A stretch of 64,000 nt of DNA from Leucoraja ocellata (lineage: Eukaryota), in assembly GCA_036785375.1 (NCBI GenBank), contig JAWMAR010000388.1, positions 186,001-250,000 on the forward strand, in the 5' to 3' direction. Below the pieces are notes generated by a model. It saw nothing but the letters and a program-made list of their open reading frames with translations, made no database searches and had not been told where the DNA came from. Positions 45,515 through 64,000 of this stretch are shown one piece after another. The translations under genes were made by a program, and so were the position numbers. The stretch's first letter is position 1. Every line of letters starts with the position of its first letter.

Positions 45515-46205
45515 CGTCGTATTTATTATTTTTAGTGTGTTTTGAAATTTGTGCTAATGTTCTCTGGTTTGTTTTATGTGGGGGGTGAGGAAGGGGATCG
45601 GGGGAAAGTTTTGTTCCTTGCAGGAGATGCGATTGTTTTCCGGGTCATATCTCCGGTCGCTCTGCGGCCTAACATCATGGAGCTGGCTGCCTTGCTCAGG
45701 ACTGACTTTGAGCCCCACCGCGGGGCGTGGACTTACATCGAAGCTGATTCCTTGCCTGGGATCGACGCTCCAACCGCGGCCTGCGGACTTTAACATCAAA
45801 GAGCTCGCAATCTCGGGAGAGACCGACGTCGGGAAGCTCCAACAACACAGAAGGTTTGACCAGCCTCGACCCGGGGGTCAGATCGCCCGGCGCGGGGAGC
45901 TGAGATCCCCCCGATGCAGGAGCTTGATCGCCCTGACGCGTAGGGACCGCCGCTGGCTACGGGAGTCAAGATCAACGGAAGTTCAAGGCCCCCGACCGCC
46001 GGAGAACAAAGAAGGGAAGAGGTTGAACTTTTTTTCGCCTTCCATCACAGTGAGGAATGGGGAGGAGTCACTGGTGGATGTTCATGTTAAAATGTATTTT
46101 GTGTGTTCTGTTGCTTTTTATTGGTATGACTGGATGGCAAATCAAATTCCTCGTATGTTGTAAAACATACTTGGCTAATACAGTATAATTCTGATTATGA
46201 TATTG
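45515..46205 (+). mobile_element. Non-autonomous GC-rich retroposon related in architecture to 24488-25347
   Basis: T-rich/G-run 5' part, GC-rich core, CCATCACAGTGA hairpin and a short-repeat tail. Confidence 0.55.
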
Positions 46206-59024: not shown

Positions 59025-59070
59025 ATGATGTCGGCGGTTTCACTGAGTTTGTTCCTGGCGTTAATTGTCC
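59025..59070 (+). CDS. IGHV: IgH leader (signal peptide) exon, MMSAVSLSLFLALIV
   Basis: Hydrophobic 15 codons plus 1 nt, then a GTGAGT donor. A 173-bp intron leads to TTGCAG at 59243. Spliced product is …[13 protein letters not shown]. Confidence 0.88.
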
Positions 59071-59243
59071 GTGAGTGATGTTGGACAAATTCCCCACGCA
59101 AGTTTCCCAGTGGTGTATCCACTACACCATTCCCCTTCTACCCACTCTAGAACCGTCCCAATTATTTCCTCTTGATAATTAGAGTCGGGGATCAATGGTC
59201 AATATTTTATCCTCGCCATTCATGCCTTGTTTTTAACTTGCAG

Positions 59244-59569
59244 GTGTCCATTCCGATATCGTTCTAACCCAGCCCAAGACAGAGACGGCCACTCCTGGAG
59301 GCTCCATCACACTGACCTGTAAAGTTAACGGGTTCAGTGTTGGCAGCAGCTGGATGACTTTGGTCCGTCAGGTCCCCGGGCAGGGGCTGGAGTGGCTGCT
59401 TACCTACTACGGTTCTACTTACACCAAGTACTTCCCTCCGGGGATAGAGAGCCGATTTACTCCGTCCAAAGACTATACGAATAATATCTTCATCGTGACG
59501 GCCAACAGCCTGAAGATCGAAGACACGGCTGTCTATTACTGTGCGAGGGCCCAATGGAACTATATTGTA
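59244..59569 (+). CDS. IGHV: IgH variable exon (IgM-like VH) with a germline-fused D-like extension
   Basis: Open frame [108 protein letters not shown]. Both conserved Cys are present. Isotype is inferred from the leader and framework only. Confidence 0.93.
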
Positions 59570-59597
59570 CACAGCGGTTCCTACCAATACAAAAACA
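59570..59597 (+). promoter_or_regulatory. 12-RSS (CACAGCG-12 bp-ACAAAAACA)
   Basis: Heptamer 59570-59576, spacer GTTCCTACCAAT, nonamer 59589-59597. Confidence 0.9.
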
Positions 59598-59924
59598 TCC
59601 ACAACCCATAATACGGTGGTCTGGGCCAGTATATGATATTTTGAATTCAATATTTCATACAACAAGAGCATAAACATGTCCAGGAATATTTTCGCACATT
59701 TTGTTGTATAGGTAACTTGAAGTAATTTGTATTTTATATGTAGATAATTCTTATCACATTTCACTGCCCTGTTTAATACACGGAGCCGTGGTGTCTGATT
59801 ATTGTTGGAAATGATTTATTTAACGCATTCATTGTTTTCAAAGAGCAATAAGTCATTCGCTTTCGATGTGAAATACGAATAATTACAGGAATTTTTTTTT
59901 TTTTTGCCTACCTTGTGCAGATCA

Positions 59925-59963
59925 TGTTATTGTGCGAGGAAGCCCATAGAATGTAACACTGTG
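59925..59963 (-). promoter_or_regulatory. 23-RSS of JH (TGTTATTGT-23 bp-CACTGTG)
   Basis: Perfect heptamer at 59957-59963. The nonamer has 2 mismatches to GGTTTTTGT. The spacer is exactly 23 nt. Confidence 0.85.
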
Positions 59964-60013
59964 TTACTATCTTGACGACTGGGGAGGAGGCACCATGTTG
60001 ACGGTAACCAACG
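59964..60013 (+). CDS. IGHJ: IgH joining segment, YYLDDWGGGTMLTVTN
   Basis: WGxGT motif and phase-1 donor G|GTAAG at 60014. Confidence 0.92.
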
Positions 60014-61767
60014 GTAAGAAACTTCATCCTATTCAGTATCTAGATGCATCCAGTTGTTATTTTACTCGATATTTCCAATAATTATATTAAATTGTTCCTC
60101 TACATTAATTACCCATTCATTGCAATGTTGGATCGATGTTGCTTTAAAATGTTATGTGATTCCGCTGCAAGATTCACGATTTAAACTTGCCTTGTGTGCT
60201 ATGACTTTCGATCCTATGACTATGAAACGGATTCGGTTTAAGTTCCTAATTACTGGGAAAATGAGCATCAATTTGCTTTCACTAGGCTTTCTAATTGTTT
60301 GAGATTGTTGTGGTCCTTGATCTGCGATGCATCGAACTGTATTTTCTGATCAACAGCAGGTACTTTGTCTCAGTGTGTTTCTTCTCAGCGCATATGAAAC
60401 AAACGACACAAACGGATAAATCCTGGGTGTAAAATGTTCAAGTTTTTAAGGTGTATGTATTAATTGGTGAATCACCTTGCCAACTTTAATCCAATCGCTA
60501 ACAAAACTTACATGGAAGAAGTAAAATGTTCTTGCAGCAAAACACAGACAGCAAGGTTCAGCGTCAGTTATATATCTTGAAGTACAATGAATAGGGAGGA
60601 ACTGTGGATGCTGATTTATGTTGCCGATGGACACAAAGCTGGAGTAACTCTGCTTCTCCCGCTGAGAGGAACTAGCGTGACGGAGGAACTGAATGTAATT
60701 CACATTATATGGAAATGTTATCTATGTAATCCACGTGTATTGTGTTATTCCTCGTTATTTCAACAATGATTGGCTCGGTGGTCAATGGAACAATGAATTT
60801 CGGTGGTCTTTGGACAGAGATATTTGGATTTTTGTGAAGAGTTTCAGCAAATTTGTGTTAAGCGATTGATCCCATCGGCGGTATGATTCAGCCGGTCATT
60901 GTGGGAGACGATATTTGGTGCGCAATTGGACGTGTTTGTACGTTCCATTCGATTGGCAGCGACCGGGTATTACTGTTGTATGAAGTGTCCGATTCGGTTA
61001 TTTCAATAAACGCAAAGAAGATATATGTTTAAAAATAAAAATAACAAGAAATTACTAGAAATCATAAATAGGAAGAGTAAATGTTGCAAACACCTAGAGG
61101 GTCACGCAGCCTGTGGCGAAAGACACATCCCATAGAGGGGAGCCGAATGACAGCTGGTAGCGCCAGAGACACGACTTCGTTCCCGAAATCAGGTGCAGAC
61201 TAAGAACTGTGCGTTCTCCCTGTGGTTTGTTACTGGTTCTCTGCTTTCCTCCCACAACCCAAAAGAGTGCAGGTTTGCAGGTTAATTGACCCGGGTGATT
61301 GACCCGGGTGGGTCGGGGTGCGATAACGTGGAACTTGTGTGTCGCCGTGGATTTGGTTGGCAGAAGGATCTATTTCTATGCTATATCTCTAATCAAAACT
61401 GAATTCGCCACGGTTTATTCTCCCAACGATAGTCGACCTGGCAAATGCTTGCTTTCCTCTTTCCACAAATGCTGCCTAACCCAATGACCCATTTCTCTGT
61501 TTTATGTCAAAGATCACGAGTTTTCCCATTTGGAAAATGCGTTGAATGTAAAACGGGGAGATGCAGTTCTTGAATAATTTGTAATCCGTGGATTTATTAG
61601 AAAGCGAATTTGAATTCGTGTTTGTCTATGGATCCAAATGTCATTTAAACACAATGTTCCTCCACTGAATTGCTAATGAAAAATGTCCGTTTTACGAATA
61701 GTTGCGGTAAAAAAAATGAGAAATTGGGAAAAATGGAATTATGGAAATGGAACTTTCTCTGCTAATT

Positions 61768-61897
61768 TAGACAATAGGTGCAGGAGTAGAGGCCATTCGG
61801 TCCTTCGAGCTAACACCGCCATTTAATGTGATGGCTGATCTTCCCCAATCAGTCCCCTTTCCTGCCTTCTCCCCATATCCCCTGACTGCGCTATCTT
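61768..61897 (-). mobile_element. Short CR1 3'-end fragment in the J-C intron
   Basis: GACAATAGGTGCAGGAGTAG…CCATATCCCCTGACT. Confidence 0.8.
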
Positions 61898-62190
61898 AAT
61901 TTTAATTACAAAACAGGGTATCCCATTAATCATTGAACAGAGTGCGAATTGAAATCCATGGCTTAAAGGAGGGTTTGAGTGGCGTTCAAATTTACATTTG
62001 CATTTATTTAATTAAGACATTGATTTAGCAACATTGTGCATTTTCACTATTCTAAGTAAACTTCCTCTATATGAATGAAATCCTTTTCCTGTTAAAGTCA
62101 CGAAGCAAACTCAGATATGTTTTAATAGATTGCAGGTTATAATTTATAATTGGTATTTTTTATATTCGTTTCCTATCGGACAGCGATACA

Positions 62191-62325
62191 CACCCGTCTG
62201 AAGAAGGGTTTCGGCCCGAAACGTTGCCCTTTTCCTTCGCTCCGTAAATGTTGCTGCACCCGCTGAGTTTCTCCAGCTTTTTTGTGTACCTTCGATTTTC
62301 CAGCATCTGCAGTTCCTTCTTGAAC
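62191..62325 (+). mobile_element. ~135-bp Penelope-pLTR-derived mini-element with a hammerhead-like core
   Basis: CTGAAGA-A-GGGT(TTCG)GCCC-GAAAC at 62198-62222. TSD ACAG[C/T]GATACA at 62180-62190 and 62326-62336. Confidence 0.75.
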
Positions 62326-63289
62326 ACAGTGATACAATGTTAATCATTCGTTCTTCCGTGCCGATCACATTGTAAACGTAAACTCGTTTTAAAGATGCTG
62401 GAAACTGAACTGAATTGCATCATTAATTTTAATTGATTATTATTGATTTCATTGAGGCAATGATGCACACAGACAAACATTTGAAACATGTGCCAATTTA
62501 TTTAATTACGAAGTATTAACATGTTCTTACAATTTATATGCTACATTTAGTTTCCAAATGTTGTGGTACATAACCTTTACTAATTCAGATATTATATTGA
62601 GGGAGTTCTTTTTAATCCTTACCAATGCAATCTCATACATGTTTTTAATCTGGTATGAATGTAATGTTCTTGCCGGCTGGTTTGCTTTTTGGAATGTCCT
62701 TGCAATTACGGTCGACATAGAAATGATCGGTATATTTTCGTGAGTGATGGGACAACAAAATACAGTTAAAAAGTAACATTTGAAGTGTGTTATTTGTCGC
62801 TACCATTTCAATCCCATCCACCCCCTTAGTTGGTTTCGTTCGATGGACACATTTAAGGCCAAATTACACGAACAAGATTGTGATTGTTTATTTTTTGTCT
62901 TCTCCCAAATTATGTTCGGGACCCGATGTGGAAAACCATAGCCATCCTTCCATTGTTTCTGATTTTATCGGATAATCTCTGAACCATTTATGACAAAAAC
63001 TCTTCCCTCTTCCTTCAAATCAAAAGTTTAGCCACGGGCACTCTCAGTGGCCCAAGCGAAACCTACCAAAATTATTTAATTTTAATTAAATAAATGCATA
63101 TGTAATTTTGAACGTCAGTCAAACCCTCGTTTGAACCATTGATTTCAATTCCCACTCTGTTCACGGATTAGTGGGATAACTGTTCGATTCAAATAGCAGA
63201 GAAAATGTTGTTTCCAACATTGCACATCATTTCACCAATTTCCATTTAGCTGGGTACACGGGACAACCCCTGACACAAACTGGCCGATT

Positions 63290-63712
63290 CCCCGAACTCT
63301 TCCTCCTGTACCCATGCAGAACTCATCGACTTCATTGTCTACAAACTTTGACCGTACGATCAAATTCCCCGGGTCTATCCCCGACACATACCTCCCCTTT
63401 GTTGATCTCACCGTCTCCATCGCAGGAGATAGACTATCGACTGACGTAAATGACAAATCTACGGACTCCCACAGCTATCAGGACTGCACCTCTTCCAACC
63501 TTGCCTCCTGCAAAGATTCTATGGTCTATTCCCAAATTCATCCATCTCCGTGCAACTGCTCCCAAGATGAGTTGTTCCATTCCAGGATATCCGAGGTCCT
63601 CATTCTTTAGGGAGCGGGTATTCTCCACTTTTACAATAGACGAGACTCTCACACGTGTCTACACTGTATCCCGTAGATCCGCCCTTGCTCCATCATCCCC
63701 AGTCGCAACAAG
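63290..63712 (+). mobile_element. Decayed Penelope-like RT fragment
   Basis: LPFVDLTVSIAGDRLSTDVNDKSTDSHSY, similar to 36124-36369. Confidence 0.75.
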
Positions 63713-64000
63713 GAGTTTGGTGAGATTGTAACACATACGCCAACGTTAGTTATAGCCATTGAACATTCCTGAGAAATGCTGGGAATTTTACAGTAATTAA
63801 TACTGGAGGCCTATCGATATATTTCCAACTCGAAATTGTGCGTACATTTGGCAGTAACTGCCAGATATTGGCACCCAAGACGTTTTCAGCCAATGTTTTC
63901 CAAGGTGGGATCAAGGCGGAATGATTAACTAATAGTGTGTGATACACGGGTGAAGTTGCATGAAATAGACAAGAGAGAGAGAGAGAGGTTAACATTCATG

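What the first reader, a model, noticed from the sequence alone, without database searches (positions are those of the whole stretch)
59025..60018. Germline pre-joined IgH cluster: V(D)D already fused, one step from JH
Seen: after YYCAR the V exon runs on for 21 nt (GCCCAATGGAACTATATTGTA) and ends in a 12-spacer RSS. About 330 bp later is one JH with a 23-RSS, and no RSS-flanked D lies between. Established: chondrichthyan IgH clusters are V-23/12-D1-23/12-D2-12/23-J, and germline-joined clusters occur in sharks and skates. Inference: V-D1-D2 was joined by RAG activity in the germline, so part of CDR3 (AQWNYIV) is inherited and only one junction diversifies. The leader, frame, splice sites and 12/23 pairing look intact. 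The palindrome GGGCCC at the V end could be P nucleotides.
Basis: partly seen in the sequence, partly recalled or inferred. Interest (0 to 1): 0.75.

Follow-up and report, generated by a model that had tools for sequence, protein, structure and literature searches.

The report
Inherited half-assembled antibody gene, re-cut scar
A cartilaginous-fish IgM gene whose V piece is already fused up to the last cutting signal before J, in four genomic copies, is a known kind of inherited pre-assembled antibody gene, but its junction has lost the normal D2 end and holds about 12 unassignable bases, which likely records an extra cut-and-reseal by the antibody recombinase in germ cells.

Summary
Observation confirmed. 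This is an intact IgM cluster (leader, V, 12-RSS, 23-RSS-J, four Cmu exons just beyond the window). Its 12-RSS and spacer DNA are the D2 3' signal of unjoined paralogs. Of 40 IgM clusters found in this genome, 20 are open and 13 are VDD-J. The same 22-nt junction stands in four copies up to 1.6% apart, so it is inherited, not somatic. Germline VDD-J clusters are in print for horn shark and little skate, and this scan noted a V-DDJ cluster in another genome.

The V end is trimmed by 3 nt, so GGGCCC is not P. The junction does not parse as forward D1+D2, unlike the five other VDD junction types. All 24 open D2s end in TGG; this junction ends in TTGTA, and 12-13 nt match no segment. Two parses tie (p about 0.04 each): a D2 5' part with an open-and-shut re-cut at the RSS (favoured), or inverted D2/D1 at a hybrid-type joint. 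Six other altered RSS borders occur in paralogs, one giving a D-less V-23/12-J heavy-chain cluster. Expression was not testable. Variant of a known kind.

The parts
59025..59070 (+). Leader exon (15 codons + 1 nt), GT donor at 59071
   Evidence: alignment with paralogs
59244..59547 (+). VH exon, V-templated part; 3' end trimmed by 3 nt relative to open V ends. Leu at the usual FR2 Trp position; no cluster translated has Trp there (Leu in 38 of 39, Met in 1), so it is not a defect of this copy
   Evidence: (Pfam V-set)
59548..59569 (+). 22-nt inherited junction; identical in 4 copies; 12-13 nt match no D or V end; last 9 nt read either as D2 positions 1-7 (one C>T) plus 2 added nt, or as inverted D2 5' end plus inverted D1 5' end
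59570..59597 (+). 12-spacer RSS = the D2 3' RSS of open clusters, heptamer intact
59598..59924 (+). D2-J intervening DNA, 97% identical to open group A clusters
59925..59963 (-). 23-spacer RSS of JH
59964..60013 (+). JH; two extra T at the heptamer border, shared only with the 3 sister copies and the L005/L006/L008 joined clusters (7 of 37 J borders)
60014..64000 (+). J-Cmu1 intron; Cmu1 starts about 18 bp beyond the window end, followed by Cmu2-4, secretory tail and TM exon (G000:C388:250,018-257,765)

Best explanation
This is an IgM cluster in which V is fused, in four inherited copies, to the DNA in front of the D2 3' signal; RAG acting in the germ line likely made the join with about 12 untemplated (TdT-type) bases and likely also cut and resealed the D2 3' signal border (open-and-shut joint), so B cells would need only one 12/23 step to J. 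Shown: configuration, origin of the RSS, four diverged copies, trimmed V end, loss of the D2 3' end, open Cmu exons. Inferred: RAG and TdT as the agents; that the last 9 nt are D2 positions 1-7 plus 2 added bases after loss of 5; whether D1 contributed (3 nt at most) or was skipped by V-23 x D2-5'-12 joining; somatic completion to J and expression.
For: Configuration and homology. Inheritance: exact junction in 4 places of contig C388 and nowhere else; copies differ 0.1-1.6% over 1.8 kb and form one clade on the V side (96/94). Altered border: 24 of 24 open D2 end in TGG; 9 of 9 other VDD-J keep a D2-like end. Forward parse: a 7-nt exact run to D2 carrying the C>T seen in the L005-type junction (12/2000 shuffles, 8/2000 random); that lineage shares the J-border TT with the window's copies. 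The heptamer is intact and only the coding side is changed, as expected of open-and-shut joints (recalled; their existence as RAG products in PMC3906580). Other clusters show border indels with intact RSS (L037 D2 5' -3, L040 J -3, L036 D2 -4, J +TT): 7 border events in all against a rough 0.4-1.5 expected. Other VDD junction types leave only 0-3 nt unassigned.
Against: The D2 variant was inferred after the fact from one sister junction; no open cluster carries it (0 of 24). The two-segment forward score is only p about 0.04 (86/2000). The inverted parse explains the last 9 nt without mismatch and scores equally. The intron tree does not resolve the window's clade as sister to L005/6/8, and the V tree separates them. 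Lee et al. found little TdT trace in germline light-chain joins (PMC2193156). Border events were picked by eye and the expectation is rough.
Confidence: 0.55

Rival explanations
1. Inversion route: the D1-D2 block was inverted and the 5' coding end of D1 was joined to the D2 3' RSS. This could happen by V-23 x D2-3'-12 inversion followed by re-cleavage of the signal joint (pseudo-hybrid joint, 12/23-compliant) or by a 12/12 hybrid joint. The gene would be V-N-invD2-invD1-RSS.
For: The last 5 nt are the exact reverse complement of the group A D1 5' end, flush with the heptamer, and the 4 nt before fit the D2 5' end: 3/1200 shuffles and 4/1200 random as a single test; 61/1500 and 59/1500 over 16 models. 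L045 shows a D1 5' RSS joined directly to a trimmed J, and L044 has a D2 stretch that also reads as inverted. A germline hybrid-joint inversion is reported for horn shark (PMC2193153).
Against: Needs three recombination events or a 12/12 violation. Pseudo-hybrid joints usually show N bases and deletion on the RSS side too (PMC1820826); here the heptamer is intact and flush. No intermediate found: all 36 D2 3' RSS hits are open D2 or VDD joins. The C>T shared with the L005 type would be a coincidence. The same inverted model reached 17/250 in a junction that is clearly forward (L010).
Confidence: 0.25
2. An ordinary V-D1-D2 germline join whose junction was later scrambled by mutation or non-RAG break repair before the copies duplicated.
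For: Single substitutions occur in other inherited junctions (L005, L007, L010, L013). CDR-coding DNA may be under diversifying selection.
Against: It needs many changes in 22 nt while the flanks differ 2-3% from open clusters and the four copies are identical there. No templated source was found in the open clusters: the longest match is 8 nt, reached or exceeded by 1224 of 2000 shuffles.
Confidence: 0.15
3. A somatic B-cell rearrangement captured in the assembly, an assembly artefact, or a native V end with a 12-RSS.
For: The long N-like stretch resembles somatic joins. The six clusters on C388 lie in mirror order, which could be two haplotypes joined head to head.
Against: L001 and L004 lie in the same orientation 146 kb apart, differ 1.63% and share the junction, which one lymphocyte event cannot give. 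21 of 21 open V end in a 23-RSS. A contig of another public DNA run (X5) holds the V end plus 15 of the 22 junction bases (below the tool's 31-base bridging rule, and it may be the assembly's own sample).
Confidence: 0.05

Closest known systems
Partially germline-joined IgH clusters of horn shark and little skate (VDD-J, VD-D-J, VDJ; Kokubu et al. 1988 as described in Lewis & Wu 2000, PMC2193153; reviews PMC5192425, PMC4279169)
   Same: V-D1-D2-J-C cluster; V fused, one 12/23 step left; open clusters coexist; here 20 of 40 clusters are joined in some way
   Different: The junction is not a forward D1+D2 product, lacks the D2 3' end and holds 12-13 unassignable nt. Kokubu 1988 itself could not be read, so I cannot say whether its junctions show the same.
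Germline-joined NS4 light chains of nurse shark (Lee et al. 2000, PMC2193156)
   Same: Recent, repeated, independent germline joins nested among very similar open genes; trimmed ends
   Different: Those are complete VJ joins with P bases and little TdT trace; this is a heavy-chain intermediate with a long N-like stretch and no P at the V end
Germline hybrid joint in horn shark IgH (inversion between D1 and D2; PMC2193153) and somatic open-and-shut, hybrid and pseudo-hybrid joints (PMC3906580, PMC1820826)
   Same: An RSS kept intact beside a changed or foreign coding end
   Different: Here the border is the D2 3' RSS of a joined cluster; germline open-and-shut scars were not found in my searches
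Somatic VDD-J intermediates in nurse shark lymphocytes (Malecek et al. 2008, PMC2435157)
   Same: Same configuration, a frequent intermediate in thymocytes and B cells
   Different: Here it is fixed in several diverged genomic copies

Membership tests
Chondrichthyan IgM cluster | One V, one J and four Cmu exons with secretory tail and TM exon in one cluster | tested here: met
   four C1-set exons; best named PDB matches of the last exon are IgM constant chains
Partially germline-joined IgH cluster (VD-J / VDD-J configuration) | V 23-RSS, both D1 RSS, D2 5' RSS and the DNA between them are gone; D2 3' 12-RSS and J 23-RSS remain | tested here: met
Partially germline-joined IgH cluster (VD-J / VDD-J configuration) | Closely related unjoined clusters exist and the joined state is derived | tested here: met
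   20 of 40 clusters open; joined clusters nest among open ones in both V groups
Partially germline-joined IgH cluster (VD-J / VDD-J configuration) | The join is inherited: present in diverged genomic copies | tested here: met
   Four copies 0.1-1.6% apart with one junction
Partially germline-joined IgH cluster (VD-J / VDD-J configuration) | Direct presence in sperm or non-lymphoid DNA of known tissue | not testable with these tools
   Runs are coded without tissue; one contig holds 15 of 22 junction bases
Partially germline-joined IgH cluster (VD-J / VDD-J configuration) | Completes rearrangement to J and is expressed | tested here: inconclusive
   0, 1 and 0 reads in three RNA runs sampled at 1-5%; 16 of 48 trim combinations are in frame without a stop
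Ordinary V-D1-D2 coding-joint product | Forward D1 then D2 remnants, D2 3' end intact at the heptamer | tested here: not met
   Flush forward model 1162/1200 shuffles; the other five junction types fit it (0/250 shuffles in four, 26/250 in the short L010). Not filed here.
Ordinary V-D1-D2 coding-joint product | P nucleotides at an untrimmed V end | tested here: not met
   V trimmed by 3 nt against all 21 open V ends
Open-and-shut joint | RSS intact, own coding end trimmed or extended | tested here: inconclusive
   RSS intact and border changed; that the neighbour is its own D2 rests on a 7-nt run to an inferred variant
Hybrid or pseudo-hybrid joint | RSS joined to another segment's coding end | tested here: inconclusive
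   5/5 match to inverted D1 5' end; family-wise p about 0.04; no intermediate

The most novel reading that the evidence does not exclude
Germ-line RAG in this fish works together with TdT and leaves the whole range of non-standard products as heritable genes: this cluster is an inherited V-invD2-invD1 gene built through inversion and a hybrid-type joint, and a paralog (G000:C1356) is a D-less heavy-chain cluster that rearranges V to J like a light chain. Germline RAG errors would then be an ongoing source of new antibody locus architectures.
Probability: 0.25. Interest if true: 0.7.

Novelty: new variant of a known kind. Interest (0 to 1): 0.4.

Why it matters
The configuration itself is textbook for sharks and skates. 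What adds value is that this genome holds 20 open and 20 joined, very similar clusters, so junctions can be read base by base. An earlier paper said this was not possible for horn shark heavy chains (PMC2193156). The window's junction suggests TdT activity and repeated RAG cutting in germ cells, and the paralogs make RSS swapping and D loss by germline RAG, proposed by Lewis and Wu, directly testable in one species.

Tried and rejected
P nucleotides at GGGCCC: rejected, V end trimmed. Native V end with a 12-RSS: rejected. FR2 Trp-to-Leu as a pseudogene mark: rejected, general in the family. Templated insertion from the excised DNA or other open clusters: no support. Signal-joint or inverted intermediates: none among 36 D2 3' RSS hits (compared). 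Expression: no RNA holder listed; three RNA runs gave 0, 1 and 0 reads, no test. Contigs of runs X1, X3, X4 and X8 do not cover the junction; contigs show presence only, so this is not counted. The J-intron tree did not resolve group A lineages. My first J regex failed (redone). The state script mislabelled L018 as V-DD-J; one search shows it open, corrected from then on. Kokubu 1988 not held; Hinds-Frey 1993 (PMC2191167) is held only as about 10,000 characters and gave no hits. No other Ig exon was found elsewhere in the window. IgW clusters and pseudogenes too diverged for the J pattern were not surveyed, so 40 is a lower bound. No supplementary files were opened; those of PMC2435157 list somatic junctions that could bear on inverted-D use.

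Full report
Observation. The window shows a leader exon (59025-59070), a V exon from 59244, a 22-nt stretch after the V-templated bases (59548-59569), a 12-RSS (59570-59597), 327 bp of spacer DNA, a 23-RSS and one JH (59964-60013), with canonical splice sites. The V frame is open (Pfam V-set). Just beyond the window lie four C1-set exons, a secretory tail and a TM exon, all open. The best named PDB matches of the last exon are IgM constant chains. It is an IgM cluster of a cartilaginous fish; I did not determine the species.

The family in this genome. A DNA search and a J pattern gave 40 clusters, all fetched. The count is a lower bound. Their states are 20 open (V-23/12-D1-22/12-D2-12/23-J), 13 VDD-J, 4 VD-D-J, 1 VDDJ, 1 VD-DJ and 1 with V, a 12-RSS and J but no D (L018 was mislabelled by the script and is open). 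The window's 12-RSS and the DNA up to J are the D2 3' RSS and D2-J interval, 97% identical to open group A clusters. All 21 open V segments end 17 nt after the start of YYC in a 23-RSS, so the extension is not a native V end. Joined clusters nest among open ones in both V groups. The 13 VDD-J clusters fall into six junction types.

Inheritance. The exact junction occurs four times, all on contig C388. The copies differ by 0.11-1.63% over 1.8 kb of D-J and intron DNA and form one clade on the V side (96/94). The six clusters on C388 lie in mirror order, which may be an inverted duplication or two haplotypes joined head to head. Even so, L001 and L004 are same-strand paralogs 146 kb apart and 1.63% diverged, so the join predates a duplication. 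Three copies look intact in the parts examined; L002 has CAC for the V acceptor CAG. Cmu1-4 are open in all four, and the TM exon was seen in two (the stretches fetched for the other two gave no TM match). A contig of run X5 carries the V end plus 15 junction bases with the L002/L003 base at 59505, and a contig of run X3 carries the V-D1 join of L044. The X5 piece is short of the tool's bridging rule and may come from the assembly's own sample.

The V is trimmed by 3 nt, which excludes P nucleotides there (rule in PMC2193153). All 24 open D2 end in TGG, and the 9 other VDD-J clusters keep a D2-like end (ATGG, AAGG or ATGA); the window's type ends in TTGTA. A forward D1+D2 model fits the other five types (0/250 shuffles in four, 26/250 in the 10-nt L010; 0-3 nt left unassigned). 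It does not fit this one (flush 1162/1200, free 764/1200).

Two parses of the last 9 nt compete. (a) Forward: D2 positions 1-7 with a C>T at position 5, then loss of 5 nt and gain of 2. The same C>T is in the L005/6/8 junction, and those clusters share with the window's copies two extra T at the J border (7 of 37 J borders). The 7-nt run is reached by 12/2000 shuffles, the two-segment score by 86/2000. The variant was inferred after the fact and is in 0 of 24 open D2. (b) Inverted: D2 5' end (4 nt) then D1 5' end (5 nt) reversed and flush with the heptamer; 3/1200 shuffles alone, 61/1500 over 16 models. The parses use the same bases, so one is a coincidence. In both, 12-13 nt remain unassigned and have no templated source in the eight group A clusters with an open D2 that I compared.

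Mechanism. I favour (a). It needs one or two standard joins plus one open-and-shut event, and it leaves the heptamer intact. Route (b) needs three events or a 12/12 pairing; pseudo-hybrid joints usually damage the RSS side too (PMC1820826, passages), and none of 36 D2 3' RSS hits is an intermediate. Paralogs show that altered borders are a pattern. L037 lacks 3 nt at the D2 5' border, L040 lacks 3 nt at the J border, L036 lacks 4 nt of D2, seven J carry an extra TT, L044 has a changed D2 5' border, and L045 has the D1 5' RSS joined to a J trimmed by 5 nt. With the window's type that is 7 events. Background is 36 gap patterns in 1128 bp of intersegment DNA, which gives roughly 0.4-1.5 expected (my estimate); Poisson P for 7 or more is at most 0.001, and for 5 or more at most 0.02. 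The events were picked by eye. RAG and TdT as agents are inferred. Completion to J obeys 12/23, and 16 of 48 trim combinations are in frame without a stop. Expression could not be tested.

What is known. Lewis and Wu 2000 (PMC2193153; parts 1-2 of 3 read) state that horn shark and little skate clusters occur as VDD-J, VDJ or VD1-D2J in the germ line, and describe one germline hybrid-joint inversion between D1 and D2. Reviews say the same (PMC5192425, PMC4279169, PMC8355894; passages). Lee et al. 2000 (PMC2193156; passages and section 17) show RAG-type germline joins in nurse shark light chains with little TdT trace, and note that heavy-chain joined junctions were too varied to dissect. Malecek et al. 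2008 (PMC2435157; passages) show VDD-J as a common somatic intermediate. Open-and-shut joints are named in PMC3906580 (passages). Kokubu 1988 was not held. Searches (listings only, apart from the papers named) showed no title or abstract start on germline open-and-shut scars, N-rich germline heavy-chain joins or D-less IgH clusters in cartilaginous fish. The library lacks most subscription papers, including the primary skate papers, so this is weak. A look-up by sequence found nothing.

Verdict. Real, inherited and apparently intact; a member of the known partially joined class by configuration, but not an ordinary V-D1-D2 product. Germline partial join about 0.95; open-and-shut reading 0.55, inversion 0.25, later scrambling 0.15, somatic or artefact 0.05. 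New variant of a known kind; interest 0.4.

Noticed in passing
L045 = G000:C1356:249,300-251,200 (minus strand); constant exons in L049/L050: IgM cluster with open V (23-RSS), the D1 5' 12-RSS joined directly to a J trimmed by 5 nt, no D left, and open V frame, Cmu1-4, tail and TM. Best read as a germline hybrid joint between the D1 5' RSS and the J RSS, giving a D-less heavy-chain cluster that would join V to J in one step. Total trimming of both D is the alternative.
   Followed up: partly
L044 = G000:C353:2,380,900-2,382,700: VD-DJ cluster; the bases after the intact D2 5' RSS do not start like D2, and 6 of them match an inverted group B D2. Its V-D1 join also stands in a contig of run X3.
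   Followed up: partly
L037 (C1544), L040 (C1824), L036 (C10), and J of L001-L006, L008: Small deletions or insertions at or next to RSS borders with the RSS intact; candidate germline open-and-shut scars.
   Followed up: partly
L022 vs L010/L011; L021 vs L007/L009: A VD-D-J cluster shares its V-D1 junction exactly (L022) or with one difference (L021) with a VDD-J type, which suggests stepwise joining over separate generations.
   Followed up: no
L021 = G000:C546:1,153,523-1,156,998: The V-D1 join creates a new CACAGTG with a 12-spacer and a nonamer-like sequence right at the V end, overlapping the D1 22-RSS. Its V has the CDR2 closest to the window's.
   Followed up: no
G000:C388, clusters at 25, 245, 391, 1527, 1841 and 2033 kb: Six VDD-J clusters in mirror order and opposite strands: a 2-Mb inverted duplication or two haplotypes joined head to head. 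All six clusters found on this contig are pre-joined.
   Followed up: partly
L002 = G000:C388:1,841 kb: V exon splice acceptor reads CAC; this copy is likely a pseudogene.
   Followed up: no
All clusters: The FR2 Trp usual in VH domains (recalled) is Leu in 38 and Met in 1 of the 39 V translated.
   Followed up: no
L043 = G000:C1868:71,000-71,430: One fully joined VDJ cluster; the V frame is open and the junction reads in frame into J.
   Followed up: no
window 45558-46160 (+): A 201-codon open stretch flagged by a loose motif scan, not Ig-like.
   Followed up: no
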